A stretch of DNA of 64,000 nt, taken from contig LCKO01000001.1 in the NCBI GenBank assembly GCA_001001485.1, positions 76,517-140,516 on the forward strand. Reading direction: 5' to 3'. A program made the position numbers and the translations under genes. The notes beneath the pieces are model-generated. The model saw only the letters and a program-made list of their open reading frames with translations, made no database searches and was not told the origin of the DNA. Positions 10,990 through 37,169 of this stretch are shown in pieces (the stretch's first letter is position 1; each line of letters begins with the position of its first letter). This stretch comes from Candidatus Collierbacteria bacterium GW2011_GWB2_45_17 (lineage in GTDB: Bacteria > Patescibacteriota > Microgenomatia > UBA1400 > MFAQ01).

Positions 10990-11745
10990 ATGTTAGTAGG
11001 CGAGTCCGATACCAACAAAATTTTAGATTTCCTTAGACTTGCTCGTCGGATGGAAACAACCTATCGTTTCACCCCTAAGCCGGATGGTAGTTTCGAAAAC
11101 GATGCTGAGCATTCTTGGTCAGTCTCTTTAATTTGTATCCTAGTCGCGAGCCGAATAGAAGAAGAACTAGGAGTAAAGATAGACCAGCTAAAAATGCTCA
11201 AAATGGCCATCATCCACGACATAGCGGAAATTGTCACCGGCGATACTAAAACCTGGGACAACGTCAGTCGAGTCGACAAAGAGGAAAAGGAAAGAACAGC
11301 CATTAAAGATTCGTTGGGCAGACTCCCAAACGACCTGATGGAGGAATTAGTAAATATTTGGGAAGAATGTGAGAAGAGAGAATCTATTGAAGCCATGATC
11401 GTCAAGTCTGTCGATAGATTTGACCCGGTAATCCATCGCACGGTTTTTGATTTAGGTTGGGACAATGTTGAAGATGACCACGCTACTTCAGAGGCATTAG
11501 ATGAGAGACAGCTCCCCAGACACTCATTTTCCAAAACCTTAACCGGGCTTTACACTACTATCCGCGATGAAGCCATTTCAAAAGGGATGTTCAAGGTAGC
11601 GAAGCCTCAATCAGACACGGACGTAGAGGATGAACTCGATCAAGAGCGGGCAGACTCGGAAGGCATGATTCAAAAAGAGTGGATCGATGAGGAATTGATG
11701 AATGAATTAGCTGAAGACCTACATAACGGCAGCACCCCTGGCTAA
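10990..11745 (+). CDS. HD-domain phosphohydrolase (YfbR-like)
   Basis: 'AEHSWSV' and 'IIHDIAEIVTGD' (H...HD...D). I chose the ATG at 10990. The long 10546 start in the ORF track is an out-of-frame run through secF. Confidence 0.7.
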   Translation: MLVGESDTNKILDFLRLARRMETTYRFTPKPDGSFENDAEHSWSVSLICILVASRIEEELGVKIDQLKMLKMAIIHDIAEIVTGDTKTWDNVSRVDKEEKERTAIKDSLGRLPNDLMEELVNIWEECEKRESIEAMIVKSVDRFDPVIHRTVFDLGWDNVEDDHATSEALDERQLPRHSFSKTLTGLYTTIRDEAISKGMFKVAKPQSDTDVEDELDQERADSEGMIQKEWIDEELMNELAEDLHNGSTPG

Positions 11746-20134: not shown

Positions 20135-20662
20135 ATGAACGAAGAAAAATGTCCAAAATGTAGCTCTCCGCTTGGAGAAATAGTCGAAACCGCCACCGGC
20201 CGGAAACTTCAGCGTTGTTCTACGGGTAGCTGGAATCGAGAAACCAAAACTTCAGACGGTTGTGATTATGTTAAGTGGCTGGAGGTACAGCCTCAACAGC
20301 TGGATGAAAAATGTCCCAAGTGTAGTTCTCCTTTGGTTCTTCAGGTCACTCGTTTTGGTAAAAAAATGAAAAAATGCAGCACTAATATCTGGAACAAAGA
20401 AACCAAAACTTCAGAAGGTTGCGACTACGTCGAATGGATAAACGGCACCACCGAGAAACTGGATGAAAAATGTCCTCAATGCAGTGAACCTTTGGTATTA
20501 TTTACCACGGCCAATGGCAAGAGACTAAAAAAGTGTTCTACCTCCGGCTGGGATAGAGATGCCAAAAGAGCCACTGGTTGCGACTATGTTCAGTGGCTTA
20601 AAGGCAATTTCAATCCTCCCGCCAACGGCGAGGAGTTTCTCCCACCGGAAGACATTTTCTAA
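20135..20662 (+). CDS. Protein made of three tandem zinc-ribbon modules (topoisomerase C4 zinc-finger-like)
   Basis: Three repeats of 'EKCPKCSSPL...KKCST..WN.ETKTS.GCDYV.W'. The DNA period is 159 bp (GAAAAATGTCC at 20147, 20306 and 20465). Confidence 0.6.
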   Translation: MNEEKCPKCSSPLGEIVETATGRKLQRCSTGSWNRETKTSDGCDYVKWLEVQPQQLDEKCPKCSSPLVLQVTRFGKKMKKCSTNIWNKETKTSEGCDYVEWINGTTEKLDEKCPQCSEPLVLFTTANGKRLKKCSTSGWDRDAKRATGCDYVQWLKGNFNPPANGEEFLPPEDIF

Positions 20663-23667: not shown

Positions 23668-23745
23668 CCTCCGCGCGGGCGACCTCCCCAAAAACGGGCA
23701 GAGATTCCCAGAGTGTTGTCTGTTATAACGATATTCGAACTTGGT
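23668..23745 (+). repeat. att-like remnant A (decayed copy of the tRNA-Gln 3' flank and 3' end)
   Basis: CCTCCGCGCGGGCGACCTCCCCAAAAACGGGCAGAGATTCCCAGAGTGTTGTCTGTTATAACGATATTCGAACTTGG aligns by eye with 27361-27432 and 31905-31975. It aligns more loosely with 37060-37125, which contains the real tRNA T-arm (TTCGAA core). Confidence 0.65.
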
Positions 23746-23786: not shown

Positions 23787-24413
23787 ATGAAACCATATTC
23801 CGACATGACCAAAAACAACACGGTACTGCTTGTAATCGACCCGGTAAATTCCTGTGCCCACGAAAAATGCGAAACCCCAGAAATAAATATTTATTTTTCC
23901 AAAATTAGAGCCATGCTTCCCAAACTAGCAAATTTTATTAAAGAATATAAGAAAAAGACAAACGGTTTAGTTATCTATACCACCATTACTCCTTGGAACA
24001 AAGAACACCTTGCTGAAAATCTAAACGAGCTTTATACCGATCCTCGAGCCCGTTACTACTCAGATGACACCACCGGGTTTGATGAAGAATTTCACACTGT
24101 AAATCCATCTCCGGAGGACTTGGTTTTTGATAAAAACACTTATGACGTTTTTACTAATGAAAAATTACTTCAAGAACTAAAGGATAGAAAAATTCACTAT
24201 ATCATTGTCACGGGGATATTTTCAGATGGCTGTGTCCTTTCTTCTGTCATAAGCGGATTTTCCAAAGGTTTCAATTTTGTCATTCTCAAGGATCTTATCG
24301 AGACAACGGATGACGAAAAGAGACAAAGACTCCAAGAGTTGTTAGTCAGTTTTACTTTCCCAAGATTGTATGGCAAAACCATCACCTCCAGTGAGTTATT
24401 GGAAATCTTGTAA
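23787..24413 (+). CDS. Isochorismatase-family cysteine hydrolase
   Basis: 'VLLVIDPVNSC' and 'IIVTGIFSDGCVLSSV' (catalytic Cys context). Confidence 0.75.
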   Translation: MKPYSDMTKNNTVLLVIDPVNSCAHEKCETPEINIYFSKIRAMLPKLANFIKEYKKKTNGLVIYTTITPWNKEHLAENLNELYTDPRARYYSDDTTGFDEEFHTVNPSPEDLVFDKNTYDVFTNEKLLQELKDRKIHYIIVTGIFSDGCVLSSVISGFSKGFNFVILKDLIETTDDEKRQRLQELLVSFTFPRLYGKTITSSELLEIL

Positions 24414-24422
24414 AGATTCTTT

Positions 24423-24719
24423 ATGAACAAAGTTCTTCGACTGTTTTTTATCGCCATAGTGATATTCTCCACATATCATCTGATTCGTGATTTACTCACA
24501 AACTTTGGAATTCATAACTACATTGTAGATTTTGCACATCGTTCTCACTTATGGTGTGGAAAATTTTATCCTTGGGTTTGTCATTGGATAACAGTTCCGT
24601 CAGAAATTTTTACTTTAGTCGTGTCGTTAATAATACTAAGACGAAATAGACCAGGAACACTTGGAGTTTTAGTTTTGATTCAAGTACCACTATGGTTATT
24701 ATTAGTTTTATTGCCTTAG
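24423..24719 (+). CDS. Small 3-TM membrane protein, island paralog 1
   Basis: 98 aa; 'YHLIRDLLTNFGIHNYIVDFAHRSHLWCGKFYPWVCHWITVP'. A near-identical paralog lies at 28848-29144. Confidence 0.6.
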   Translation: MNKVLRLFFIAIVIFSTYHLIRDLLTNFGIHNYIVDFAHRSHLWCGKFYPWVCHWITVPSEIFTLVVSLIILRRNRPGTLGVLVLIQVPLWLLLVLLP

Positions 24720-24721
24720 AT

Positions 24722-25504
24722 CTACTGACTTCCAAATTTTCTCCAGTTTCTATCGGTTCTGGTTCGATGAATCTTTTCGAGTTTACTTTGCTCTTTTTGC
24801 CATTTTAAAAAAGATCCGCGACAACGGACATCTTTTGTATATGCGATCAGCCATTGGGTTAGTGGCCATTCACCAACTGCCCTACATTTTGTAAATTTGA
24901 AAACTACAAAGTCACGATATTTACTCATGTCGTTATTAGAGATTAGTGGTGTTAGTCTCTTAATAATTTGCAAGAAGCATAAATCGACCTCAGGAGTAGG
25001 TGTGAAATCAGTTCTTTTGAAAACGTGACTGATTTTAATTTCAAACCAAGGATAAAAGAGAATTGAAAGCATACTATTCTTTCTCTGATTAACCATGAAT
25101 TTTTCAGCCGCCTCTTTTTGGACAATCAGACTACAAGAATCCGGTGGATTATCAGAAAACAACAGCTTTTTGACAATCTCCCCGGTTATAGAAAATGGAA
25201 TATTCGAAAAGACTTTGTATGGTTCTCTTGGAAGATCAAGGGCTAAAATATCACTACAAACAAGTTCCAAAGCTATATTGTTCCCCAGACGACTAGACAG
25301 ATGGGCAAATAAACCCTTGTCAATTTCGACTGCAATCACCTTCTTGGAAACAGATAGCAAGCCTTCAGTGAGTATGCCACTGCCGGCACCAATTTCCAAA
25401 ACCGTATTTTTCCACGAAATACCAGAGGCGGCAATGAGCCGCTTTACAAGGTCGCGTCCCCTAAGAAAGTTCTGCGATAGTAGTTTCCGCCGTGTTTTGA
25501 ACAT
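24722..25504 (-). CDS. rRNA adenine N6-methyltransferase family protein, Erm-like
   Basis: 'LSQNFL', SAM motif 'LEIGAGSGILT', 'VIAVEID' and 'YKVFSNIPFSITGEIVKKLL'. The C-terminal half runs parallel to ErmC as I remember it ('ISNNDMSKYRDFVVFKFT' versus 'ISHKDKQKYNYFVMKWV'). Confidence 0.7.
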   Translation of the reverse strand: MFKTRRKLLSQNFLRGRDLVKRLIAASGISWKNTVLEIGAGSGILTEGLLSVSKKVIAVEIDKGLFAHLSSRLGNNIALELVCSDILALDLPREPYKVFSNIPFSITGEIVKKLLFSDNPPDSCSLIVQKEAAEKFMVNQRKNSMLSILFYPWFEIKISHVFKRTDFTPTPEVDLCFLQIIKRLTPLISNNDMSKYRDFVVFKFTKCRAVGEWPLTQWLIAYTKDVRCRGSFLKWQKEQSKLEKIHRTRTDRNWRKFGSQ

Positions 25505-25537
25505 GGCAGAGGATTCTGCAAGTAATCATAATAGCCT

Positions 25538-25565
25538 CATTATATCAGAACCTAGTTGGTTGTCA
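25538..25565 (-). promoter_or_regulatory. Putative sigma70-type promoter of the Erm-like gene
   Basis: The minus strand reads TTGACA-16 nt-TATAAT, ending about 33 nt upstream of the ATG at 25504. Confidence 0.5.
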
Positions 25566-25672
25566 ACTGTTATAGGCTGATTAACTTGCCTGTTTTGCAG
25601 GCATACTTATAGTATCCTCACTGAAATATAATTAGCCTATGAATCGATATTTATCAATCATTCTAACATTCA

Positions 25673-25698
25673 ACAAAAAAACCCGCCATTCGGCGGGG
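25673..25698 (-). terminator. Rho-independent terminator downstream of the CBS gene
   Basis: The minus strand reads CCCCGCCGAATGGCGGG followed by TTTTTTT. Confidence 0.75.
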
Positions 25699-25708
25699 TC
25701 ATCTTTAT

Positions 25709-26164
25709 TTATCTGGCACCGAGAATGTAAGACTCAAACTGCTGTGCCACTAATTCCTGGTTTTTTAATAGAGCGTAGAGCACATCCCTTATTGAAACTA
25801 TCCCCACCAGCTTTTTCTTATCAATCACCGGCACGTGCCTGATTTTCTTATCTTTCATTAAGTTCAGACAGTCCATAATGTTGGTGAAAGGAGAAACGTA
25901 GGCCGGGTCAGCCGTCATATACTCGGCCACAAACACTTTTTTTGGATCTACTCTGTCTAGCAATACTTTAAAGGCCAGGTCGCGCTCTGTAATAATCCCG
26001 ACCATCTTCCCTTCATCAAGCACCGGCAAGGCTCCAAAACCTTTATCTCGCAGAATCTTGCCTGCCTCATAGACTGTGAACCGGGGACTGACAGCGAAGA
26101 CCTTTTCCGTATCCAAATGAGATACTTTCAGAACATCTAACACTCTCGACATTAATACCTCCAA
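25709..26164 (-). CDS. CBS domain pair protein
   Basis: Two CBS repeats: 'ALPVLDEGKMVGIITERDL' and 'IRHVPVIDKKKLVGIVSIRDV'. Confidence 0.8.
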   Translation of the reverse strand: MEVLMSRVLDVLKVSHLDTEKVFAVSPRFTVYEAGKILRDKGFGALPVLDEGKMVGIITERDLAFKVLLDRVDPKKVFVAEYMTADPAYVSPFTNIMDCLNLMKDKKIRHVPVIDKKKLVGIVSIRDVLYALLKNQELVAQQFESYILGAR

Positions 26165-26337
26165 TTTTGATAAGGTGCAGAACTCGGTGATTATACAACA
26201 AAGTCCCAGTCCAGGCTCGAGCCCGACCTATTCGTATCATTTTGATACGATTAAGGTATATGAATGATACGAAGAAGTGCGGTACGAAGCCATAAAACCA
26301 TTCGACACAATCCTAAATTATGCGAATAGTCAAAGTT

Positions 26338-26423
26338 GTTTCGCCACCCCCGTCAGCCTCAGGCAGAGTGGCAATCCAGAATCTTGTCATTCCGGTCCGC
26401 CAGTTGGCGGATGACCCGGAATC
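26338..26423 (+). repeat. R4 repeat (GTTTCGCCACCCCCGTCAGCCTC[A/T]GGC[A/T]GAG...CCGGTCCGCC..GGCGGA)
   Basis: The first 32 nt are nearly identical to 27481-27512. Both copies end in a CCGCC-N4-GGCGG hairpin. Confidence 0.7.
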
Positions 26424-26436
26424 TATACAAATTTCC

Positions 26437-26499
26437 ATCTGATATTTATGGATTGAGCCAGCCTTGGCCTAACGGCCAAAGTGCCTGCTTCGCAGGCAC
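26437..26499 (+). repeat. R2 twin-hairpin module, copy 1
   Basis: ATCTGATATTTATGGATTGAGCCAGCCTTGGCCTAACGGCCAAAGTGCCTGCTTCGCAGGCAC. It has two adjacent stem-loops; the second is GTGCCTGC-TTCG-GCAGGCAC. It ends 47 nt upstream of the ATG at 26547. Confidence 0.75.
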
Positions 26500-26546
26500 A
26501 AGAAACACTCTAACTTTATAGTAATCAAGAAGTGTAAAATTCACCT

Positions 26547-27266
26547 ATGGCGATAGAAGAAATTGCAGCTGAAACAGATGTACTCAAAAAACCAGAAGTA
26601 AAAGTTGAGACAGATAGAATAGTGTCGGAAAGCCAAGAGGCTATAACAACTGCGATACTTAAATACGGCTCCTTGTTAGATGAGTCTACTTTGCTTGGCA
26701 TGATTCAAGGAGCTGCTTTTGAAAGAATTGCTCTTGATTTTATTGAGTTACACAGAATTGGTTATGACTCTCTTGACGACAAGCGTCAAAAACTAATTCT
26801 TGAAAACATTAGAGCCAAGTCAATTCGTAACCCTGACGGAATAATTGCAAGGTCTGGTATAGAAATATATGGAGTATTTGAAGTTAAGTTAGACCCAATT
26901 AGAGATACAAATTATCGAGTATCGGATCAGATAAAACACTTTGGAGAAAACATCTGGGATGCGGTTCAAGAGTTAAGACAGCAGGGCAAACTGGATGAGA
27001 TTACCGTTGTCAACCCTGAAGAAATAAAAATAGTAGTTATTCACCCAAGAAGTGCTAAAAACGAATATGTCGAAATGGAAATCGAAGAGTTATCCTCAGG
27101 AGTTCTAAAAGGAACAAAGAAGGGTCGTTCTGATATTGAATATATTTTTATTCCTATTACAAAACAAGAAATAGTAGCTTTCGCAAAAACCATAAAGGAT
27201 AGAGTGGTAGATGGGCTTACTGATGATGTGAAATGTTGGATTGTTCCAGATGAATGGGTTGATTAA
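26547..27266 (+). CDS. Hypothetical protein, possible PD-(D/E)xK nuclease fold
   Basis: 'NPDGIIARSGIEIYGVFEVKLD' fits a D...E.K pattern. The fold call is weak. Confidence 0.45.
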   Translation: MAIEEIAAETDVLKKPEVKVETDRIVSESQEAITTAILKYGSLLDESTLLGMIQGAAFERIALDFIELHRIGYDSLDDKRQKLILENIRAKSIRNPDGIIARSGIEIYGVFEVKLDPIRDTNYRVSDQIKHFGENIWDAVQELRQQGKLDEITVVNPEEIKIVVIHPRSAKNEYVEMEIEELSSGVLKGTKKGRSDIEYIFIPITKQEIVAFAKTIKDRVVDGLTDDVKCWIVPDEWVD

Positions 27267-27312: not shown

Positions 27313-27434
27313 CTGGTGGGCGGGCGCGCGTCCTCCAGAGGCGGATCAGCCTATGGCTGAGGCGACCTCCCCGAAAACGGGCGGGAAATCCCAGAGTGTT
27401 GCCTGTTATAACGAAATTCGAACTTATTTTCGGG
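27313..27434 (+). repeat. att-like remnant B (with a 31-nt internal insertion)
   Basis: CTGGTGGGCGGGCGCGCG...GCGACCTCCCCGAAAACGGGCGGGAAATCCCAGAGTGTTGCCTGTTATAACGAAATTCGAACTTATTTTCGGG. Collinear with remnants A and C and with the tRNA flank. Confidence 0.65.
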
Positions 27435-27480
27435 ACCATTACTAATCTATTGGCTCACCGCTCCACACTCCGTGTCTCGC

Positions 27481-27550
27481 GTTTCGCCACCCCCGTCAGC
27501 CTCTGGCTGAGCCTCCCCTGCCGGTCCGCCTTTGGCGGAGGCGGAACCAC
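27481..27550 (+). repeat. R4 repeat, copy 2
   Basis: GTTTCGCCACCCCCGTCAGCCTCTGGCTGAG...CCGGTCCGCCTTTGGCGGAGGCGGAACC. Confidence 0.7.
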
Positions 27551-27566
27551 TTGCGCGCGATTTAAT

Positions 27567-27614
27567 ATTGTATCCCGACTGCGGTCGGGATGAATTGCTC
27601 TGCGAGCAAGCGCC
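27567..27614 (+). repeat. R3 hairpin repeat, short copy
   Basis: ATTGTATCCCGAC-TGCG-GTCGGGATGAATTGCTC-TGCG-AGCAAGCGCC. Confidence 0.7.
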
Positions 27615-27688
27615 AGCTATCGCTGTCGCATCTTTATGTTCGCCCGCCTTAGGCGGACGAAGCTCTCTCAATATATGGCTCAGAACAT

Positions 27689-27734
27689 CGTCATTGCGAG
27701 GAGTGCAATGACGAAGCAATCTATATAGATTGCT
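27689..27734 (+). repeat. R1-related repeat variant
   Basis: CGTCATTGCGAGGAGTGCAATGACGAAGCAATCTATATAGATTGCT, with hairpins GTCATTGC/GCAATGAC and AGCAATCTAT/ATAGATTGCT. Confidence 0.65.
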
Positions 27735-27777
27735 CTTCCTCGCCATAAAATATCAGATAGTTAGGAGAAATTTTACT

Positions 27778-27840
27778 ATCTGATATTTAAGGGTTGAGAC
27801 AGCATTGGCCTTCGGCCAAAGTGCCTGCTTCGCAGGCACA
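27778..27840 (+). repeat. R2 twin-hairpin module, copy 2
   Basis: ATCTGATATTTAAGGGTTGAGACAGCATTGGCCTTCGGCCAAAGTGCCTGCTTCGCAGGCACA. Both loops are TTCG. It ends 20 nt upstream of the ATG at 27861. Confidence 0.75.
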
Positions 27841-28794: not shown

Positions 28795-28847
28795 ACCAGA
28801 CTCTCCTGGAAGAAAAATGTAAAAATACTAATAGCTACAATACAAAT

Positions 28848-29144
28848 ATGAACAAAGTACTACGACTACTTTTTACTACAATACTAGTATTCTCTGTATA
28901 TCATCTGGTTCGTGATTTACTCACAAATTTTGGAATTCATAACTATATTGTAGATTTTGCACATCGTCCTCACTTGTGGTGTGGAAAATTTTATCCTTGG
29001 GTTTGTCATTGGATTACAGTTCCTCCTGAGATTTTTACGTTAATAGTGTCACTAATCGTATTAAAGCGAAACAGAGTAGGAGTACTTGGGTTTTTAGTTT
29101 TATTACAAGTACCACTGTGGTTATTATTAGTCTTATTACCTTAG
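28848..29144 (+). CDS. Small 3-TM membrane protein, island paralog 2
   Basis: 98 aa, collinear with 24423-24719 with few substitutions. 'HLWCGKFYPWVCHWITVP' is conserved. Confidence 0.6.
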   Translation: MNKVLRLLFTTILVFSVYHLVRDLLTNFGIHNYIVDFAHRPHLWCGKFYPWVCHWITVPPEIFTLIVSLIVLKRNRVGVLGFLVLLQVPLWLLLVLLP

Positions 29145-29147
29145 CAA

Positions 29148-29522
29148 ATGATGTTTCGATCACTTTTTCAAAAAATTGTAAGACAAAGATCTGAAGTTGT
29201 TATTAGTCGCATCTTTCCATTTCTCAAAGACTCAAAAAAGATTTTAGATATTGGTTCTGGGACTGGTGATGTAGCATTTCTGCTAGGGGAACATGGAAAA
29301 GACGTAACGCCTGTTGATGTTAGCGATTTTCATGGTCCTAGACTTGTAAAAACCACGATCTACGACGGACGAAAACTACCATTTCCGAATAACTCATTTG
29401 ATACTGCCATGCTACTTATGGTTATGCACCACACCTCTAACCCAGAAATTGTCTTTGATGAAGCATCAAGGGTAGCCAAAGAATTAGTGGTTATTGAAAC
29501 GTCTGGGGTAGAAAGGTTGTAG
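29148..29522 (+). CDS. Class I SAM-dependent methyltransferase, probably C-terminally truncated
   Basis: 'ILDIGSGTGDVAFLL'. At only 124 aa it ends soon after motif post-II. Confidence 0.5.
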   Translation: MMFRSLFQKIVRQRSEVVISRIFPFLKDSKKILDIGSGTGDVAFLLGEHGKDVTPVDVSDFHGPRLVKTTIYDGRKLPFPNNSFDTAMLLMVMHHTSNPEIVFDEASRVAKELVVIETSGVERL

Positions 29523-31828: not shown

Positions 31829-31909
31829 CTTTTTGAAAGATAAACAGATTATTGTGGAATGGGAAAAGCCCTTCGCATCGCTCCGCGCGTGGGCGGGCGC
31901 GCGGGCGAC
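31829..31909 (+). repeat. 81-bp direct repeat, left copy (orphan recombinase 3' end)
   Basis: CTTTTTGAAAGATAAACAGATTATTGTGGAATGGGAAAAGCCCTTCGCATCGCTCCGCGCGTGGGCGGGCGCGCGGGCGAC, identical to 36984-37064. It would encode '..LKDKQIIVEWEKPFASLRAWAGARA', but no recombinase gene lies upstream of it. Confidence 0.9.
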
Positions 31910-31942
31910 CTCCCCGAATGTGGGCGAGATTTCCCAGAGTGT

Positions 31943-32035
31943 TGGCGGTTTACGAAAAATGTCGAACTTCATTTGATTAGCTCGGCCTTCGGCCTCGCTT
32001 GCTCCGGCGCGGCGCCCCCACCCGCCGCGCCTCCG
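31943..32035 (+). repeat. 93-bp perfect inverted repeat, left arm
   Basis: TGGCGGTTTACGAAAAATGTCGAACTTCATTTGATTAGCTCGGCCTTCGGCCTCGCTTGCTCCGGCGCGGCGCCCCCACCCGCCGCGCCTCCG is the exact reverse complement of 35304-35396. Confidence 0.9.
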
Positions 32036-32167
32036 CTATTTTTTGAGCGCGCGATTTTCTCGCCCTTCGGGCGAGCGAGGAAGAAATTTTTAGTTTTCCT
32101 TGCCCCGTCCGCCCACGCGCGGAAATAATTTTAGCTCCCACAATAATATCAGAATTAAATTACAAAT

Positions 32168-32893
32168 TTAATTCGAATTCATAATTTCTGATACCTTGTT
32201 ATTTTCTTCTATTAAAAAGATCCTAGTAAAATTATGATTAATTCCATTAATAGCTGTTTTAAAGATATTAGCGTCAGCCAAAGGATAATTGTTTATAACA
32301 CCTAGCCATTTTTCACCATTATTGCTATTTATTTCTTTGAGCTTTGACTCTTTTTCTTTAATTATTTTGTCTAGTATTAATTGCGTTTGCTCTTGAATGA
32401 CAATAATGGGGTTTTTGTCTGTTATTGCTCCTATAATTGCTTTACGCCTGTTGTCACCATGACTAATTTCATGAACTTCAACGATTTCTCCATAAATTTT
32501 CAAGTTTCTATTTCCAGGTGGCTTATTTTTTCTTATTAACTTATCCAAAGTTCTCACGAGACCTTTTTTGAATTTATTGAAATTTTTTACAGGCACTTTG
32601 AAAACCAACATTATAGATTTTCCTTTAGGAACCAGATTTTTGTATTTATTATCTAGTTGATTGCAAAATTTAATAAGGGTTTCCGTAGAAGTTCTTTTCT
32701 TGCTTTTCTCGTTTTCATCTTTATAAATAGATTCTGCCGTGGTAATTTCTAATGGGGTTTTATTACCACTACTATCGACACAATAGTAATCTGGAGGATC
32801 TCCACCCGGTACTATTTCAAAAGGTGGATATGAGATTGATTCAAGATAAACCTTTATCGACTTTTTCGCGTATTCTTCATCAACTCGCATCAT
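32168..32893 (-). CDS. Hypothetical protein (possible PD-(D/E)xK-like N-terminus)
   Basis: 'GGDPPDYYCVDSSGNKTPLEITTAE'. The assignment is weak. Lies inside the inverted-repeat-bounded segment. Confidence 0.4.
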   Translation of the reverse strand: MMRVDEEYAKKSIKVYLESISYPPFEIVPGGDPPDYYCVDSSGNKTPLEITTAESIYKDENEKSKKRTSTETLIKFCNQLDNKYKNLVPKGKSIMLVFKVPVKNFNKFKKGLVRTLDKLIRKNKPPGNRNLKIYGEIVEVHEISHGDNRRKAIIGAITDKNPIIVIQEQTQLILDKIIKEKESKLKEINSNNGEKWLGVINNYPLADANIFKTAINGINHNFTRIFLIEENNKVSEIMNSN

Positions 32894-33036
32894 AAATAAT
32901 GATTCGTCCTTAAACTGAAGACATTGTGTATAAAAATCATAATCATAAGTAGTTTATCATATAGAAGTATATCTGTTTGCACTATCACAATCCCCATTGA
33001 GTTTTTTATGATAAAGATTTACAATTGGAGTAGCTT

Positions 33037-34338
33037 ATGAAGACAATAATTATCTGGCTTTTTGGTTTGGGTTTTCTTTTAGGCCTTCTTATTACATTAC
33101 TTTTAAGAATGTGGTTGATCGTACCAATTTATTTGATACTGACTTTAGTAACTATTCCTCCTCTACATAATTTTTTATCAAAACGAGTTAATTTAAAACT
33201 AAATAGAGTGAGTCGTTTAATTTTAATTTTTTTACTTGTTCCATTGTCTATGCTAATCGCCACTCTTTACGGATTCGTTGATGGAACAACTACACTTAAA
33301 AAAACAGCTCAATTTTTTGCTGATGACGGTTCCTCTTTATATATGTATCCCAGCTTATACTGGCCCACTGATAAAGGCGGTTATGATGACGCTTCTAAAA
33401 ATCCAGCTATTGCAAGTGACAAGATGATATTTAATGTGTTTGATTTAAGAGAAGGATATAATGCTGGATTCGGAACGATAATGGCTCCTTTTAAGCCAAA
33501 CTTGAGACATGAAATTGAAAAAATATTGAAATATAAACCAAGTAAAATATTCAATTATTCGGATATCGTTGTATTCAATAAAGAAGTACAAAAAGACGAT
33601 AAGAGAGTTTTCATCCAACGAGTCATTGCTAAAGGTGGTGATAAAGTTCGTTTTGAAAATGGATATGTATATGTTAACGGAAAAAAGATTGATGAACCAT
33701 ATTTAGCAAAAGACCAATCAACCTATGCAGGTATTTTTTACAATCAAGAAAAGTTTATCAAAAATTGTGAGGAAATAATCGTACCTGCAAATCAATTGTT
33801 TGTTCTAGGTGACAATAGGATGCTTTCCGATGGTGATAGTAGAAATTTTGGCACAATTTCAGAAGATGAAATACTTGGATATTTACCAAAGGATTATCAA
33901 ACAACATTTTCAAAATATTGGTTAAAGAATAATCAAATGAAGGTTGTAAGTGATGGGGATAGTAACGAATTATTAACTTATTTTAATCAAATAAGGCAAA
34001 AAAAAGGAATGTCTAACTTAACCACATCAAATGATTTAAACATAATAATAAAAAATTATCTTAAAAGTGCTATTGAAAATAATGACTTCTCTAATATCCC
34101 AAAAAAATTAGCCACTCAAAAGGCATTACAGGAAATTATAAACAGAAATCCAATAGGAGTGACAATAATAGAAGGGGTGTATGATCTGGATACTTATAAG
34201 GGATATTTATATTTGGTTGCAGGCGACGCGAATTCCCAAGAGGCACAGAAAAATAGTTCAAAATTTGCTTTTTCAAGCTTTAGGACAGAAATCGATGGTT
34301 GTATGAAGTCTGGAACAATTATTGCTACTTTTAAATGA
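33037..34338 (+). CDS. Signal peptidase I (S26)-like membrane protein with a C-terminal extra domain; catalytic residues look substituted
   Basis: S26 boxes 'IQRVIAKGGDKVRFENGYVYVNGKKIDEPY' and 'VLGDNRMLSDGDSRNFGTISEDEILG'. The expected 'SM.P' nucleophile box reads 'YMYPSL', and the 'KR' general-base position reads 'QR'. Confidence 0.55.
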   Translation: MKTIIIWLFGLGFLLGLLITLLLRMWLIVPIYLILTLVTIPPLHNFLSKRVNLKLNRVSRLILIFLLVPLSMLIATLYGFVDGTTTLKKTAQFFADDGSSLYMYPSLYWPTDKGGYDDASKNPAIASDKMIFNVFDLREGYNAGFGTIMAPFKPNLRHEIEKILKYKPSKIFNYSDIVVFNKEVQKDDKRVFIQRVIAKGGDKVRFENGYVYVNGKKIDEPYLAKDQSTYAGIFYNQEKFIKNCEEIIVPANQLFVLGDNRMLSDGDSRNFGTISEDEILGYLPKDYQTTFSKYWLKNNQMKVVSDGDSNELLTYFNQIRQKKGMSNLTTSNDLNIIIKNYLKSAIENNDFSNIPKKLATQKALQEIINRNPIGVTIIEGVYDLDTYKGYLYLVAGDANSQEAQKNSSKFAFSSFRTEIDGCMKSGTIIATFK

Positions 34339-34355
34339 AACTTTGTGACACCTAA

Positions 34356-35102
34356 TTAAATAGCTGACTGATTTAGTTCTTCAACTAACTTTTGCGATTT
34401 CTCCATTAGTCGTTTTTCGTTATAATCTGGGGATATATTCAAAGATGCTCCTAATACTACCAAAGAAAACAGTAAGGTATTAAATAATCTTTTGAGTCCC
34501 ATTTTAAGTATGTCATCAGAATATAATTGCGGGCCCATAATAAGCTCGTGGTTATTTTGGGAAGTACGAATATTATTTTTTGTGATATCGTAAATTACAT
34601 TCGGATTATTGTGTAAAAAACGAGAAGACTCTTTGAATAAATTTAGAAAAACGATTTTGTGCCATTTGACTTGTTTTGCCTTTTGTTTGTCAGAAATAAA
34701 AACTTTTCCATCCTCTTCAACTCGTTTTAACATAGCCTCAATTTTATGATTTCTGAAAAAATTTCGGTAGTTCGTAGTGCGATATTCAATTTCTGTATCT
34801 GGAAATTCCTTAAAATAAGCAGAAAGTATAACTGCCTCCGCCACTACTCTTATCATGATTTCTGATGATCGGATATATCCGGAACTCAACAAATAAAAGG
34901 CGTTATCCATCAATGGTAAGGTTTGAGAGAGTAGAATTAGCAATGTCCAATTAGGATATTCGTTATCCTTTACTTTTCCTGATGTTGCCTGTAGAAATGA
35001 AGTGTAAACTTCAAGTAATTGATTAAACAAAATTTCTTCGTTTTGAAACTTTGTTTTGAATGCAGATAAAATAGTTTTTTCTTCTTTATCAAAAATTCCC
35101 AT
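34356..35102 (-). CDS. Hypothetical all-helical protein
   Basis: ORF only; lies inside the inverted-repeat-bounded segment. Confidence 0.45.
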   Translation of the reverse strand: MGIFDKEEKTILSAFKTKFQNEEILFNQLLEVYTSFLQATSGKVKDNEYPNWTLLILLSQTLPLMDNAFYLLSSGYIRSSEIMIRVVAEAVILSAYFKEFPDTEIEYRTTNYRNFFRNHKIEAMLKRVEEDGKVFISDKQKAKQVKWHKIVFLNLFKESSRFLHNNPNVIYDITKNNIRTSQNNHELIMGPQLYSDDILKMGLKRLFNTLLFSLVVLGASLNISPDYNEKRLMEKSQKLVEELNQSAI

Positions 35103-35162
35103 ATCTTATTTTATCATTTTTGTTCGCTTGTAGTTTTATTTGAAAAAGTTTATATTAAATTC

Positions 35163-35248
35163 GGAACCAGTAGTTTACAGATTGTCTTTTTTAATGGCGC
35201 ACTCGTCAGCAAGGAGACAGTCTAAGCTGGTTCCAACGGTGCGCCATT
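35163..35248 (+). ncRNA. Candidate structured RNA or DNA element with pseudoknot-type interleaved complementarity
   Basis: Three pairings: GGAACCAG (35163-70) with CTGGTTCC (35227-34); AGATTGTCT (35179-87) with AGACAGTCT (35215-23; one G-T pair that is a wobble only on the + strand); AATGGCGCAC (35193-202) with GTGCGCCATT (35239-48). Confidence 0.3.
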
Positions 35249-35303
35249 TAAAATTTTTGCGTTTTTTTAGTCGCTTTCAGTGACTTTTACGAGCCGACAG
35301 TTT

Positions 35304-35396
35304 CGGAGGCGCGGCGGGTGGGGGCGCCGCGCCGGAGCAAGCGAGGCCGAAGGCCGAGCTAATCAAATGAAGTTCGACATTTTTCGTAAACCGCCA
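35304..35396 (-). repeat. 93-bp perfect inverted repeat, right arm
   Basis: Exact reverse complement of 31943-32035. Its outer flank (35397-35470) is a degenerate inverted copy of the GGGCGGGCGCG..ACCTCCC att-like flank. Confidence 0.9.
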
Positions 35397-35601
35397 GCCA
35401 GTAAAGAGAAGAAAGAGATTGGGAGGTAGCGCTTTCCGCGCCCGCCTCCGCGGAAAGCGCGTCAAATCCGCCTTTTTTGAAACTTGCGGACAGGCGCCGA
35501 AAAAAGAAGGAAGAAAAAACGCAAAAATTGGGCTTCTTGAAAGAAGCCCTGCTCACTATCGTTCGCTTAAAGAACTTTTAGGAGATAAGATATAAAACGA
35601 C

Positions 35602-37158
35602 ATGATTAAATACATCGCCTATTGCAGGAAATCTACAGACGAACCAGACAGACAAATTTTGTCTATTGAGGCGCAAGTTGCCGAACTTGAGGAATTCGCC
35701 GCAAAGGAGAATTTAAAAATAGTTTCTTTCATTACTGAGAGTAAAACTGCCAAAGAGCCGGGAAGACAGAAATTTGCGGAGGTTTTGGAAAAGATTGAAA
35801 ACGGCGGAGCCGCCGGTATCATCTCGTGGCATCCAGACAGACTTGCAAGAAATTCTGTTGATGGCGGAAAGATTATCTATTTATTGGATACAGGAAAATT
35901 GCTTGATTTAAAATTTCCGTCTTTTTGGTTTGAAAATACACCGCAAGGCAAGTTTATGTTAGGAATGGCCTTTAATCAGTCTAAGTATTATGTGGATAAT
36001 CTTTCCGAAAATGTTAAACGAGGTAACCGCCAAAAACTCCGCCGTGGCGAGTGGCCGAATCAAGCAACTTTTGGTTACTTAAATATCAACAAAAAGATCG
36101 AAGTTGATAAGAAACGAGCCAAGTATGTGCAAAAAGCTTTTCAGCTTTTTGCTTCCGGCGGCTACGGATATGCGGACATCCGAAAATTTTTCAACCAAAA
36201 CAAAATTTTCAACAAGTCCGGTCATGAACTCCACCTTGATAAAGTCAAAAGAATTTTGACCGATCCGTTCTACTATGGAGTGATGAGATTTTGCGGCGAA
36301 CTTTATGAAGGAAAACACCAGCCCTTAATTAGCAAGAAGCTTTTTGATAAATGTCAAGAAGTTGTGAAACTCAAAAGCAGAAAGGTTAAAAACAACAAAC
36401 ATCTTTTTGATTTTCTGGGACTTGTAAAGTGCGGCGAATGTGGCGGCGCAATCACCGCTGAAATGCATACAAAGAATTACAAACGAACTAATAGAACGGT
36501 TGAGTATGTATATTACCGTTGTTCAAAAAAGAAAGGTGCTTGCTCGCAAAAATATATTGATAAAGAGGAAATTCAGAAACAACTAAAAGAGATTGTTTTG
36601 CGAGCATCTCTGCCGCCGCACGCCGCCAAAAAATTTCTTGAGTGGGCGGATAAAGACGTAAGTCAAGAAAAGGATAAATCATCGAGAATTATTTCGACTT
36701 ATCAACTGCAACTCAAGGAAACTGAGGAGAAAACTGATCGTTTGCTTGAAGGATATTTAGACAAGATAATTTCTCCTGAAGATTACCAAAAGAAAAAGAA
36801 CGAACTGGTTGAAACAAAATCGCTTCTAAGTTCCAAAATTAAGGAGATTTCTACAAACGGCGTTGAATGGCTCGAACCTTTCCAGGAATTCGTAAATAGT
36901 GCGCTTTCAGCGCAAAAAATCGCGCGCAAGGGTTCCGCGGACTCAGAACTGCGGTTCTTCGTCCAAAACATCGGTTCGAACTTCTTTTTGAAAGATAAAC
37001 AGATTATTGTGGAATGGGAAAAGCCCTTCGCATCGCTCCGCGCGTGGGCGGGCGCGCGGGCGACTGACCCCGTTCCTACCGAAATGTCCCGAAGTGTTGC
37101 CGGACTAGGACTCGAACCTAGAATATTCGCCTTCAGAGGGCGACGTCCTACCAATTAG
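35602..37158 (+). CDS. Large serine recombinase (resolvase/invertase N-domain + recombinase domain + zinc ribbon + coiled coil)
   Basis: 'IAYCRKSTDEPDRQILSIEAQ' (Ser nucleophile context), 'SWHPDRLARN' and zinc ribbon 'CGECGG...YYRCSKKKGACSQ'. The ORF tail reads through the att repeat into the antisense of tRNA-Gln, so the last 40 aa or so are probably fortuitous. Confidence 0.85.
   Translation: MIKYIAYCRKSTDEPDRQILSIEAQVAELEEFAAKENLKIVSFITESKTAKEPGRQKFAEVLEKIENGGAAGIISWHPDRLARNSVDGGKIIYLLDTGKLLDLKFPSFWFENTPQGKFMLGMAFNQSKYYVDNLSENVKRGNRQKLRRGEWPNQATFGYLNINKKIEVDKKRAKYVQKAFQLFASGGYGYADIRKFFNQNKIFNKSGHELHLDKVKRILTDPFYYGVMRFCGELYEGKHQPLISKKLFDKCQEVVKLKSRKVKNNKHLFDFLGLVKCGECGGAITAEMHTKNYKRTNRTVEYVYYRCSKKKGACSQKYIDKEEIQKQLKEIVLRASLPPHAAKKFLEWADKDVSQEKDKSSRIISTYQLQLKETEEKTDRLLEGYLDKIISPEDYQKKKNELVETKSLLSSKIKEISTNGVEWLEPFQEFVNSALSAQKIARKGSADSELRFFVQNIGSNFFLKDKQIIVEWEKPFASLRAWAGARATDPVPTEMSRSVAGLGLEPRIFAFRGRRPTN
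36984..37064 (+). repeat. 81-bp direct repeat, right copy (true recombinase 3' end plus att flank)
   Basis: Identical to 31829-31909. Confidence 0.9.
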
Positions 37159-37169
37159 ACGATCCGGCA
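37097..37169 (-). tRNA. tRNA-Gln (anticodon CUG), no encoded CCA
   Basis: Hand-folded from the reverse complement: TGCCGGA TC GTCT AATTGGTA GGAC G TCGCC CTCTGAA GGCGA ATATT CTAGG TTCGAGT CCTAG TCCGGCA A. It has a 7-bp acceptor stem, a GTTCGAGTC T-loop and a CU-CUG-AA anticodon loop. Confidence 0.85.

What the first reader, a model, noticed from the sequence alone, without database searches (positions are those of the whole stretch)
24722..25565. Erm-like rRNA adenine methyltransferase carried on the island with its own canonical promoter
Seen in sequence: a 260-aa protein carries 'SQNFL', 'LEIGAGSGILT' and 'YKVFSNIPFSITGEIVKKLL'. Its C-terminal half runs parallel to ErmC as I recall it, rather than to KsgA. 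The gene sits in the first island unit, downstream of a terminator. A TTGACA-16-TATAAT promoter lies about 33 nt from its ATG. Established knowledge: Erm enzymes methylate A2058 of 23S rRNA and confer MLS-B resistance, while KsgA/RsmA is the housekeeping 16S paralog. Inference: this is a mobile ribosome-protection (resistance or self-immunity) gene in a lineage not usually considered a resistance reservoir. I could not find a convincing leader-peptide attenuator.
Basis: partly seen in the sequence, partly recalled or inferred. Interest (0 to 1): 0.5.

Follow-up and report, generated by a model that had tools for sequence, protein, structure and literature searches.

The report
Inherited Erm-like rRNA methylase in Collierbacteria

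Summary
**Observation: confirmed.**
- A 260-aa ORF lies at 24722-25504 (- strand) and carries the quoted motifs.
- A perfect TTGACA-16-TATAAT promoter sits 34 nt before its ATG, downstream of the terminator of the neighbouring CBS gene.

**Identity.**
- The window comes from Candidatus Collierbacteria (CPR/Microgenomates).
- The protein falls in the Erm clade. It separates from 13 KsgA references with 100% bootstrap and is sister to Erm(42) and two plasmid Erms.
- It shares a C-terminal tail motif (…EQSKLEKIHRTR…) with only that group.
- The Erm adenine-pocket and basic-ridge residues are kept, and the KsgA QRRK motif is absent.
- It scores 193.5 bits on NCBI's Erm model, just under the 212-bit cut-off. 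Function is untested.

**Mobility: not supported as recent.**
- Orthologues (62-83% identity) sit in related neighbourhoods in other Collierbacteria, and an Amesbacteria homologue (~50%) also has a TspO gene nearby.
- They have diverged about as much as the flanking genes.
- The gene does lie in a cassette-rich zone beside a tRNA-Gln integration hotspot, between degenerate att-like repeats.

**New here.**
- In 16 of 17 family loci a near-leaderless, out-of-frame uORF starts 25-34 nt upstream of the erm ATG.
- In 15 of 16 loci a stable hairpin buries that start codon.
- This points to leader-dependent translational control.

**Prior work.** Erm-like genes in candidate phyla have been reported in bulk, so this is a new member of a known kind.

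The parts
24722..25504 (-). Erm-family rRNA adenine N6-methyltransferase gene (260 aa)
   Evidence: - ORF; Pfam RrnaAD, E = 1.6e-39.
- NCBIfam Erm 193.5 bits against ksgA 134.1 bits.
- Placed in the Erm clade in the NJ tree.
- AlphaFold model with pLDDT 89.7.
25539..25566 (-). Sigma-70-type promoter: TTGACA, 16-nt spacer, TG-n-TATAAT
   Evidence: 12/12 consensus match. Both hexamers and their position are conserved in L001, L004/L100, L096 and L099.
25461..25529 (-). Out-of-frame upstream ORF (22 codons, MITCRILCHVQNTAETTIAELS plus TAG). It starts 9 nt after the -10 box and 25 nt before the erm ATG, and runs across it.
   Evidence: An equivalent uORF is present in 16 of 17 family loci. In this genome a -10 box close to an ATG is the usual (leaderless) gene layout.
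25486..25510 (-). Hairpin that buries the erm start codon. The 5' arm UCUGCC lies directly before the AUG; the 3' arm GGCGGA lies in codons 5-7.
   Evidence: - Predicted in 15 of 16 family loci, with dG from -11.7 to -21.2 kcal/mol.
- 49 control genes of the window average -4.5 +/- 3.2 kcal/mol.
- A few compensatory changes are seen.
25682..25697 (-). Terminator-like hairpin of the upstream CBS-domain gene (25709-26164)
   Evidence: CBS domain assignment.
23678..23742 (+). Degenerate att-like GC-rich repeat, on the downstream (3') side of the erm gene
   Evidence: It is 89% identical to the copy at 27361.
27361..27425 (+). Degenerate att-like GC-rich repeat, on the upstream (5') side of the erm gene
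   Evidence: The same element brackets a strain-variable cassette in L004/L005.
31829..37169 (.). Context only: a recent low-GC island. It is bounded by an 81-nt perfect direct repeat (31829-31909 / 36984-37064), carries a large serine recombinase (35602-37158, +), and abuts tRNA-Gln (37096-37169, -).

Best explanation
**What it is.** The gene encodes a member of the Erm branch of the rRNA adenine N6-methyltransferases. It belongs to a compact subfamily found in Candidatus Collierbacteria, Amesbacteria and uncultured relatives. Its nearest characterised relative is Erm(42).

**What it most likely does (inferred).** It most likely uses S-adenosylmethionine to methylate A2058 of the organism's own 23S rRNA during 50S assembly. 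That would make the ribosome intrinsically less sensitive to macrolides, lincosamides and streptogramin B.

**How it got here.** It is a long-standing chromosomal gene of this lineage, inherited vertically. It happens to sit in a cassette-rich zone next to a tRNA-Gln integration hotspot.

**How it is expressed.**
- Transcription starts from a conserved consensus promoter.
- Unlike most genes of this genome, which appear to be leaderless, the mRNA has a short leader.
- A near-leaderless, out-of-frame upstream ORF begins 2-4 nt from the predicted 5' end.
- The erm start codon lies 8-11 codons further on, inside a stable hairpin.
- Erm synthesis therefore probably depends on ribosomes translating or stalling on the upstream ORF. 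This would be a minimal form of the leader-peptide control known for other erm genes.

**Shown versus inferred.**
- Shown here: gene, promoter, family placement, conservation, upstream ORF, hairpin.
- Inferred: the A2058 target, the resistance phenotype, and how the leader works.
For: **Family placement**
- Pfam RrnaAD. The NCBIfam Erm model is the best hit for all 94 aligned family members, and the best member reaches E = 7e-70, which I convert to about 235 bits, above the 212-bit cut-off.
- PDB sequence search: top matches are ErmE and Erm(38).
- Plasmid search: 35.8% identity over residues 10-256 to a Psychrobacter plasmid gene annotated erm. That gene lies about 2.3 kb from an mph(E)/(G) gene, with an IS91 transposase on its other side. 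Identity to Erm(42) is 31% over 94% of the length.
- NJ tree: the KsgA versus Erm+family split has 100% support. The family is sister to the Erm(42) group at 78% support, with ErmE/Erm(38) outside at 83%.
- The C-terminal tail motif G(S/A)(F/Y)..K.Q.EQSKLEK(I/V)HR(T/S)R is shared only with the Erm(42) group.

**Catalytic and RNA-binding residues**
- Conserved in the family: SQNFL, EIGAGxG, E60, NIPF (F104), K135, F167-x-P169.
[quoted passage not shown] PMC8906542 shows the ErmE residues to be needed for function.

**Vertical inheritance**.

**Leader**
- Promoter, leader and the first 16 codons are about 95-100% identical in species whose erm genes are otherwise 75-82% identical in DNA.
- The uORF is present in 16/17 loci.
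- The hairpin is present in 15/16 loci and is far more stable than in 49 control genes.
- The genome is largely leaderless: 12 genes have their -10 box exactly 6 nt before the ATG, and only 6/56 have a Shine-Dalgarno-like motif.

**Literature**: an erm clade in 'Candidatus phyla' that also holds some known mobile erm genes (PMC8914350).
Against: - There is no functional test of any member of this subfamily. The CPR preprint explicitly did not test MLS genes.
- This protein scores below the NCBIfam Erm cut-off (193.5 < 212).
- The C-terminal domain lacks about 40 residues present in Erm(42), ErmC and ErmB. That domain is the locator that docks Erm on the 50S precursor (PMC12652253). CPR 23S rRNAs are themselves reduced (PMC12641178). 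The target therefore cannot be taken for granted.
- Fold comparison does not separate Erm from KsgA; TM is about 0.62-0.70 for both.
- The tree is neighbour-joining and contains no CPR KsgA sequences.
- I could not check whether the same genome has a separate ksgA. rsmA is detected in only 82% of CPR genomes.
- Covariation within the core hairpin is modest because the stem hardly varies.
- All three substitutions seen in the Collierbacteria uORF change its peptide, so selection on the peptide sequence itself is not shown.
Confidence: 0.6

Rival explanations
1. One reading: a mobile resistance or self-immunity gene carried as cargo of an integrative island and recently acquired by this genome.
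For: - The gene lies between two degenerate att-like repeats (23678 and 27361).
- It sits in a tandem array that ends at tRNA-Gln with a serine recombinase.
- Its GC content (0.392) is somewhat below that of the core genes (about 0.43-0.47).
- A neighbouring cassette (28836-29503) is 96% identical to one in another species, so transfer does occur here.
- The adjacent 98-aa membrane gene has a paralogue in that cassette.
Against: - Orthologues in four other Collierbacteria-type loci are only 62-79% identical, like the flanking genes. There is no near-identical copy elsewhere.
- Neighbours and orientation are partly shared across species.
- In L004/L005 the gene is outside the strain-variable cassette and identical in both strains.
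- No transposase or integrase lies next to the gene in L001, L004, L096, L097 or L098.
- In L004 and L097 the gene's GC content equals that of its locus.
Confidence: 0.15
2. A divergent housekeeping KsgA/RsmA that dimethylates A1518/A1519 of 16S rRNA, possibly the only RrnaAD enzyme of the genome.
For: - It still matches the ksgA model at 134 bits, and one family member reaches E = 1.5e-54.
- The fold is equally close to KsgA.
- rsmA is missing from about 18% of high-quality CPR genomes.
- No second RrnaAD gene is present in the 64-kb window.
Against: - Below the ksgA cut-off (134 < 171), and the Erm model scores higher in every member.
- 100% bootstrap separation from KsgA.
- The KsgA C-terminal F.QRRK motif is absent, and the tail is of the Erm(42) type.
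- A start-codon hairpin with an upstream ORF is typical of regulated erm genes, not of ksgA.
Confidence: 0.07
3. An Erm-derived enzyme whose role is an intrinsic, constitutive modification of the reduced CPR ribosome, at A2058 or at another adenine. Any drug resistance would be a side effect.
For: - The gene has been retained across Collierbacteria and an Amesbacteria relative over long divergence.
- The C-terminal locator domain is remodelled.
- CPR have shortened 23S rRNA and unusual sets of biogenesis factors.
- The 'headless' Erm(37) is described as promiscuous in its targeting.
Against: - The catalytic and RNA-contact residues match those of resistance Erms.
- The closest characterised relatives are resistance genes.
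- The leader architecture suggests conditional rather than constitutive expression.
Confidence: 0.18

Closest known systems
Erm(42) and related plasmid Erm proteins (Pasteurellaceae/Enterobacteriaceae IncC plasmids; Psychrobacter pVan23-1; Phytobacter pTMTA98322)
   Same: - Sister group in the tree (78% support).
- 31-36% identity over 93-95% of the length.
- Same SQNFL and (F/Y)KVFSNIPF motifs, and the same basic C-terminal tail ...EQSKLEK(I/V)HR.R.
- Erm(42) is the Erm monomethyltransferase of Desmolaize et al. 2011. The reference is seen; its identity with erm(42) is from memory.
   Different: - The window protein lacks about 40 residues in the middle of the C-terminal domain (260 aa against 289-301 aa).
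- It is chromosomal and lineage-inherited, with no IS91/ISCR-type element beside it as.
- Its leader has a different layout.
Classical Erm enzymes: ErmC', ErmB/ErmAM, ErmE, Erm(38) (solved structures 1qam, 1yub, 6nvm, 7f8a)
   Same: - Rossmann-fold catalytic domain.
- Motif IV N-I-P-(Y/F).
- Adenine-pocket F-x-P and the basic-ridge lysine.
- Foldseek top hits with TM about 0.69.
   Different: - Only 27-31% identity, ending at about residue 185-225 depending on the reference.
- The C-terminal domain diverges.
- There is no four-segment attenuator of the ermC type.
KsgA/RsmA/Dim1 16S/18S rRNA dimethyltransferases
   Same: Same Pfam family and the same fold.
   Different: - Separate clade with 100% support.
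- GQNFL becomes SQNFL.
- No QRRK motif.
- Below the TIGR00755 cut-off.
Leader-peptide translational attenuation of erm genes (ermCL/ermC, ermBL/ermB)
   Same: A short upstream ORF, plus a hairpin that sequesters the erm initiation region. Leader peptides are annotated beside ermC, ermB and ermT; the family layout is.
   Different: - The upstream ORF is near-leaderless and out of frame, and it runs across the erm start codon.
- There is only one hairpin, with the AUG in its 5' arm or loop.
- No alternative pairing was found.
- The mechanism is unknown.

Membership tests
Erm 23S rRNA (adenine-2058-N6) methyltransferases | RrnaAD Rossmann fold with SAM-binding motif I and catalytic motif IV N-(L/I)-P-(Y/F) | tested here: met
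   - Pfam PF00398, E = 1.6e-39.
- EIGAGSG and NIPF are present and more than 90% conserved in the family.
- AlphaFold model with pLDDT 89.7.
Erm 23S rRNA (adenine-2058-N6) methyltransferases | Score above the curated cut-off of NCBIfam NF000499 (Erm23S_rRNA_broad, 212 bits) | tested here: not met
   193.5 bits for this protein. Some members of the same subfamily do pass: the best E-value is 7e-70, which I convert to about 235 bits.
Erm 23S rRNA (adenine-2058-N6) methyltransferases | Phylogenetic placement inside the Erm clade, apart from KsgA | tested here: met
   NJ tree with 200 bootstraps: 100% split from 13 KsgA sequences, and nested among Erm(42), ErmA/B/C/T, ErmF and ErmE/Erm(38). Caveats: the method is NJ only, and no CPR KsgA sequences were included.
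Erm 23S rRNA (adenine-2058-N6) methyltransferases | Residues shown necessary in ErmE: Y134 (Y/F), F196, P198, K164 | tested here: met
   F104, F167, P169 and K135 are each conserved or invariant in 94 family members. The mapping comes from the alignment and from PMC8906542.
Erm 23S rRNA (adenine-2058-N6) methyltransferases | Complete C-terminal helical 'locator' domain as in ErmC' | tested here: inconclusive
   A helical C-terminal domain is predicted (helices at 190-258). It is about 40 residues shorter than in Erm(42)/ErmC and carries an extra basic tail. The role of this domain is described in PMC12652253.
Erm 23S rRNA (adenine-2058-N6) methyltransferases | Methylates A2058 and confers MLS-B resistance | not testable with these tools
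   This needs expression, MIC testing and rRNA mapping. CPR MLS-type candidates were not tested in the 2026 preprint.
KsgA/RsmA 16S rRNA dimethyltransferases | Score above the TIGR00755 cut-off (171 bits) | tested here: not met
   134.1 bits.
KsgA/RsmA 16S rRNA dimethyltransferases | C-terminal F.QRRK motif and clustering with KsgA | tested here: not met
   The motif is absent in the alignment with E. coli and Bacillus KsgA, and the family forms a separate clade.
KsgA/RsmA 16S rRNA dimethyltransferases | Single, universal copy in the genome | not tested
   - Only the 64-kb window could be scanned, and it holds no second RrnaAD gene.
- The genome-collection scan returned only Firmicutes and Nitrospirota KsgA.
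- rsmA is present in 82% of CPR genomes.
Cargo of a tRNA-linked integrative island | Flanked by att repeats, with a recombinase | tested here: inconclusive
   Degenerate repeats lie at 23678 and 27361 (89% identical over 65 nt). The recombinase lies 10 kb away, in a younger unit bounded by an 81-nt perfect repeat.
Cargo of a tRNA-linked integrative island | Patchy distribution or near-identical copies in unrelated genomes (recent transfer) | tested here: not met
   Orthologues have diverged like their neighbours and sit in related contexts. By contrast, the cassette at 28836-29503 is 96% identical across species.
Leader-peptide translational attenuators of erm genes | Short upstream ORF conserved in position | tested here: met
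   Present in 16 of 17 family loci. The ATG lies 8-11 nt after the -10 box and 25-34 nt before the erm ATG.
Leader-peptide translational attenuators of erm genes | Secondary structure that sequesters the erm initiation region | tested here: met
   15 of 16 loci have dG from -11.7 to -21.2 kcal/mol, against a control mean of -4.5. In L097, L098, L103, L104 and L152 the Shine-Dalgarno sequence is paired as well.
Leader-peptide translational attenuators of erm genes | Alternative pairing, or drug-dependent stalling, that frees the start site | tested here: inconclusive
   By inspection of the leader sequences and the MFE folds, no second complementary segment was seen; this was not searched for systematically. 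Only 3 of the 13 distinct uORF peptides in 16 loci carry a strict R-x-R motif. Stalling itself cannot be tested here.

The most novel reading that the evidence does not exclude
The compact CPR Erm subfamily may be controlled by a previously undescribed, minimal drug sensor.
- In a genome that mostly uses leaderless mRNAs, ribosomes would load on a near-leaderless upstream ORF.
- The erm AUG lies 8-11 codons downstream, out of frame and inside a hairpin.
- This is about the nascent-chain length at which macrolide-bound ribosomes stall or release peptidyl-tRNA (from memory of the macrolide literature).
- An arrested or vacated 70S that has melted the hairpin would then sit on the erm start codon and start Erm synthesis only when the drug is present.

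If this is true, these ultra-small episymbionts actively sense ribosome-targeting antibiotics.
Probability: 0.25. Interest if true: 0.65.

Novelty: new member of a known kind. Interest (0 to 1): 0.4.

Why it matters
**Sorting earlier bulk counts.** Bulk screens report 'erm' hits in most CPR genomes (PMC8651080 and the 2026 preprint) without mentioning the housekeeping paralogue KsgA. This case shows there is a genuine Erm-clade lineage that is vertically kept in Collierbacteria and related Microgenomates. It also gives sequence markers that define it:
- SQNFL;
- NIPF;
- a compact C-terminal domain;
- the ...EQSKLEKIHRTR... tail shared with Erm(42).

**Origin of mobile genes.** The shared tail links the mobile erm(42)-type genes of animal pathogens to a large environmental clade.

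**A testable regulatory system.** The conserved leader offers a simple, testable case of translational control in organisms that cannot yet be grown alone. That leader is a near-leaderless upstream ORF plus a start-codon hairpin, in an otherwise leaderless genome.

**Limit.** None of this changes the basic picture of Erm enzymes, and the function remains to be shown.

Tried and rejected
- **Separate ksgA in Collierbacteria.** The single genome-collection scan, run with a KsgA alignment, returned only the 80 best matches to Bacillus KsgA: Firmicutes plus two Nitrospirota. It was useful for reference sequences but not for co-occurrence. The supplements of PMC12641178 and PMC8651080 hold no per-genome table for Collierbacteria. 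I ran no further search on a low-odds attempt.
- **Fold comparison.** Foldseek against the PDB cannot tell Erm from KsgA.
- **Rfam.** The non-coding repeats around the gene gave only a sub-threshold palindrome match. No known RNA family is present there.
- **Leader structure by RNAalifold.** On a plain MAFFT alignment it gave a weak consensus, because two subgroups form the hairpin in registers shifted by 2 nt. Per-sequence folding with controls was used instead.
- **Classical four-segment attenuator.** Inspection of the leader sequences and the folds showed no alternative pairing between the uORF region and the 5' arm of the hairpin. The GAGG/CCUC pairing seen in L001 is not kept in L099.
- **Programmed frameshift joining the uORF to erm.** Rejected as a general mechanism, because the uORF is in frame +1 in 13 loci and +2 in 3 loci.
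Full report
**1. What is there**

The region holds one clear gene: 24722..25504 on the minus strand, 260 aa, ATG start.

The overlapping plus-strand ORF 25095..25580 is a shadow of this gene. It is 'conserved' in orthologous loci only because it overlaps them.

Upstream on the coding strand lies TTGACA (25566..25561), a 16-nt spacer, TG-A and TATAAT (25544..25539).
- This is the only 12-of-12 promoter match in 24000-26600.
- The -10 box ends 34 nt before the ATG.
- A terminator-like hairpin at 25697..25682 closes the upstream CBS-domain gene 25709..26164.

**2. Whose genome it is**

The identical protein is on record from Candidatus Collierbacteria bacterium GW2011_GWB1_4… (the source name is cut off in the output), on a 170-kb contig. 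This is a CPR/Microgenomates organism.
- The window also carries RNase P RNA and one tRNA-Gln(CUG).
- Only 6 of 56 larger ORFs have a Shine-Dalgarno-like motif.
- 23 of 56 have a good -10 box 5-11 nt before the ATG, with a sharp peak at 6 nt.
- Most mRNAs of this genome therefore look leaderless.

**3. Erm or KsgA?**

*Profile and sequence searches*
- Pfam places the protein in RrnaAD.
- In NCBIfam the broad Erm model scores 193.5 bits (cut-off 212), and the ksgA model scores 134.1 bits (cut-off 171).
- All 94 aligned family members hit the Erm model best. The best E-value is 7e-70, which I convert to a score above the cut-off.
- Against solved structures, ErmE and Erm(38) come first by sequence.
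- Against plasmids, the best matches run almost full length:
  - 35.8% identity to a Psychrobacter plasmid gene annotated erm, which lies about 2.3 kb from an mph(E)/(G) gene with an IS91 transposase on its other side;
  - 34% to a Phytobacter IncC plasmid gene;
  - 31% to erm(42).
- E. coli KsgA is 23% identical.

*Tree*

I built a neighbour-joining tree from 224 columns with 200 bootstraps. It held 23 family members, 10 Erm references and 13 KsgA references (E. coli, Firmicutes, Nitrospirota).
- KsgA separates from everything else at 100%.
- The family is sister to the Erm(42) group at 78%.
- ErmA/B/C/T, ErmF and ErmE/Erm(38) branch outside it.

*C-terminus*
- A direct alignment shows the extreme C-terminus GSFLKWQKEQSKLEKIHRTRTDRNW. 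Its only counterparts are in Erm(42) and the two plasmid proteins.
- The KsgA F.QRRK motif is absent.

*Conserved residues*

Family-wide invariant or near-invariant residues are SQNFL, EIGAGxG, E60, NIPF (F104), K135 and F167-x-P169. [quoted passage not shown]

*Structure*

The AlphaFold model is confident (pLDDT 89.7). Foldseek scores Erm and KsgA structures alike, so it does not discriminate.

*Caveats*
- The protein misses the curated Erm cut-off.
- Its C-terminal domain lacks about 40 residues found in other Erms. That domain is the part that docks ErmC' on the 50S precursor (PMC12652253).
- The tree contains no CPR KsgA.
- I could not test whether the genome has a separate ksgA. rsmA is found in 82% of CPR genomes (PMC12641178 supplement).

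**4. Mobile or inherited?**

*The neighbourhood is plastic*
- A large serine recombinase (35602-37158) abuts tRNA-Gln.
- An 81-nt perfect direct repeat (31829-31909 / 36984-37064) bounds a low-GC unit (0.31-0.34).
- Degenerate copies of a GC-rich att-like element lie at 31904, 27361 and 23678.
- The erm gene therefore lies in the outermost of three 'units'.
- One cassette (28836-29503) is 96% identical to a cassette in a different species (L005), so transfer does happen here.

*The erm gene itself behaves differently*
- Orthologues at 79% (L001), 73% (L099), 68% (L004/L005/L100) and 62% (L096) identity exist in other Collierbacteria-type contigs. Homologues at about 50% occur in another Collierbacteria bacterium and in Amesbacteria.
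- L001 shares tRNA-Gln (3.1 kb from erm) and the 121/131-aa membrane genes.
- L004 shares the CBS and AstE-like genes and the same orientation relative to the att-like element.
- L001, L004 and the Amesbacteria locus L097 all have TspO nearby.
- Erm divergence matches that of flanking genes. Against L001: RarA 88%, methyltransferase 76%, Lon 71%. Against L004: AstE-like 66%, CBS 58%.
- In L004 and L005, the strain-variable cassette lies between two att-like elements. The erm gene lies 3.5 kb outside it and is identical in both strains.
- No transposase or integrase flanks the gene in the five other contexts examined.

My reading is long vertical residence at the edge of an integration hotspot. 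An ancient cassette origin cannot be excluded.

**5. The leader**

*Sequence conservation*
- From the -35 box to codon 16, the sequence is about 95-100% identical in the window, L001, L004/L100, L096 and L099. The rest of the gene is 75-82% identical.
- In all but L099 the conserved block ends at the stop codon of a 22-codon out-of-frame ORF; in L099 that stop is lost and the ORF runs 24 codons. This ORF starts 9 nt after the -10 box and 25 nt before the erm ATG (25529..25461).

*The upstream ORF across the family*
- Across 17 family loci (39-100% protein identity), 16 share the same layout.
- The layout is: a -10 box (often with TG), then 8-11 nt with a purine at the expected start site, then an ATG. 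That ATG opens an out-of-frame ORF of 22-39 codons starting 25-34 nt before the erm start.
- The peptides begin hydrophobic and reach an Arg near the erm AUG. Examples: MITCIILRH, MCITCRRLL, MITFMIRRFRY, MNCIITRGRH.

*The hairpin*
- Fifteen of 16 loci fold the region -16..+36 into a hairpin of -11.7 to -21.2 kcal/mol.
- It pairs the six bases before the AUG, and the Shine-Dalgarno sequence where there is one, with codons 5-8.
- 49 control genes of the window average -4.5 +/- 3.2 kcal/mol, and none reaches the family median.
- Within the main subgroup the stem barely varies: there are two compensatory pairs, and the shuffle control is only modestly exceeded.
- A second subgroup builds the hairpin from different sequence in a shifted register.

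*Interpretation*

In a genome where ribosomes mostly start at 5'-terminal AUGs, this is a leadered gene whose own AUG is hidden and whose 5'-proximal AUG belongs to another frame. This points to leader-dependent translational control, as in other erm genes. Leader peptides are annotated next to ermC, ermB and ermT.

*How it works is not shown.* The options are:
- drug-dependent stalling or peptidyl-tRNA drop-off placing a ribosome on the erm AUG;
- plain translational coupling;
- autoregulation by Erm binding a hairpin whose 3' arm ends ...CGG|AAA, like helix 73/A2058 (ermC autoregulation: Breidt & Dubnau 1990, cited in PMC11721399).

All three substitutions in the Collierbacteria uORF change its peptide. 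Only three of the 13 distinct uORF peptides carry a strict R-x-R motif.

**6. What is already known**
- Lund et al. (PMC8914350) describe a clade of predicted erm genes from 'Candidatus phyla' and metagenomes that also contains a few known mobile erm genes.
- Maatouk et al. (PMC8651080) counted 3,077 erm-like hits in 4,062 CPR genomes.
- Razzouk et al. (bioRxiv 2026) counted 13,375 erm hits in 12,552 CPR genomes, but did not test MLS genes.
- The library of cluster representatives holds 251 clusters with E <= 1e-30 to this protein. Only about 15 of the 150 listed align end to end like the compact form.

**7. Verdict**
- Real gene and real promoter.
- It sits on the Erm branch (Erm(42)-related, compact C-terminal domain), not the KsgA branch.
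- It is an inherited chromosomal gene in a cassette-rich zone, not recent island cargo.
- It probably confers intrinsic MLS-type ribosome protection, which is unproven.
- It carries a conserved uORF-plus-hairpin leader that deserves testing.
- Classification: new member of a known kind. Interest: moderate.

Noticed in passing
window 31829-37169: A recent integrated element at tRNA-Gln(CUG).
- An 81-nt perfect direct repeat (31829-31909 / 36984-37064).
- A 518-aa large serine recombinase (35602-37158) overlapping the tRNA on the other strand.
- A 93-nt perfect inverted repeat (31943-32035 / 35304-35396).
- Genes with GC content 0.31-0.34, against about 0.44 in the core genome.
   Followed up: partly
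window 28836-29503; L005 3493-4160: A 668-bp cassette (a small membrane protein plus a truncated SAM-methyltransferase) is 96% identical between this genome and a Collierbacteria species whose other shared genes are about 68-76% identical in DNA. This implies recent transfer between CPR lineages.
   Followed up: partly
window 23678-23742, 27361-27579, 31904-31968; also 26338-26500 vs 27481-27840; L004 184-282 and 6356-6465: A GC-rich non-coding repeat family (GGCGACCTCCCC...CCCAGAGTGTTG...TCGAAC) is 83-93% identical between species, which is more conserved than the coding DNA. It brackets variable cassettes and has weak likeness to the 3' half of tRNA-Gln. It has no Rfam match. It may be the recombinase att site or a small RNA.
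   Followed up: partly
whole window (e.g. genes at 10990, 17462, 23787, 26547, 27861, 41242, 44849, 49660, 50238): Twelve of 56 larger genes have a -10 box exactly 6 nt before the ATG, and only 6 of 56 have a Shine-Dalgarno-like motif. Leaderless mRNAs appear to be the main gene layout in this Collierbacteria genome.
   Followed up: partly
window 24422-24719 and 28847-29144: A 298-nt duplication (84% identity) of a small membrane-protein gene. One copy is convergent with erm, as in L001. The other follows its 124-aa partner gene, also as in L001. The ancestral block erm / 121-aa gene / 131-aa gene seems to have been split here.
   Followed up: partly
L096 8693-9895; L001 11967-13151; L004 17857-20681; L096 16397-19704: Transporter genes recur near erm orthologues. 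An MFS_1 gene lies directly upstream of erm in L096 and close by in L001. MacB-type ABC/FtsX systems lie 6-10 kb away in L004 and L096. A link to drug efflux is possible but untested.
   Followed up: no
window 20135-20662: The 175-aa ORF contains three tandem copies of a 159-nt unit (repeat families D3 and D6) with CxxC-type motifs. It is a repeat protein of unknown role.
   Followed up: no
window 27730-27805: A palindromic, hairpin-forming element that scores on both strands against a MITE-derived miRNA model, far below threshold. It may be a miniature inverted-repeat element in the intergenic region before the deformylase gene.
   Followed up: no
L008 about 2958-2993 and L009 about 2900-2977 (upstream of the plasmid erm genes): The Psychrobacter and Phytobacter plasmid erm genes also have short upstream ORFs of 11 and 25 codons, by my reading of the sequences printed. 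These overlap or end at the erm ribosome-binding site. For erm(42), an in-frame ATG lies 8 nt after a TATAAT box, which is a leaderless-like layout.
   Followed up: no
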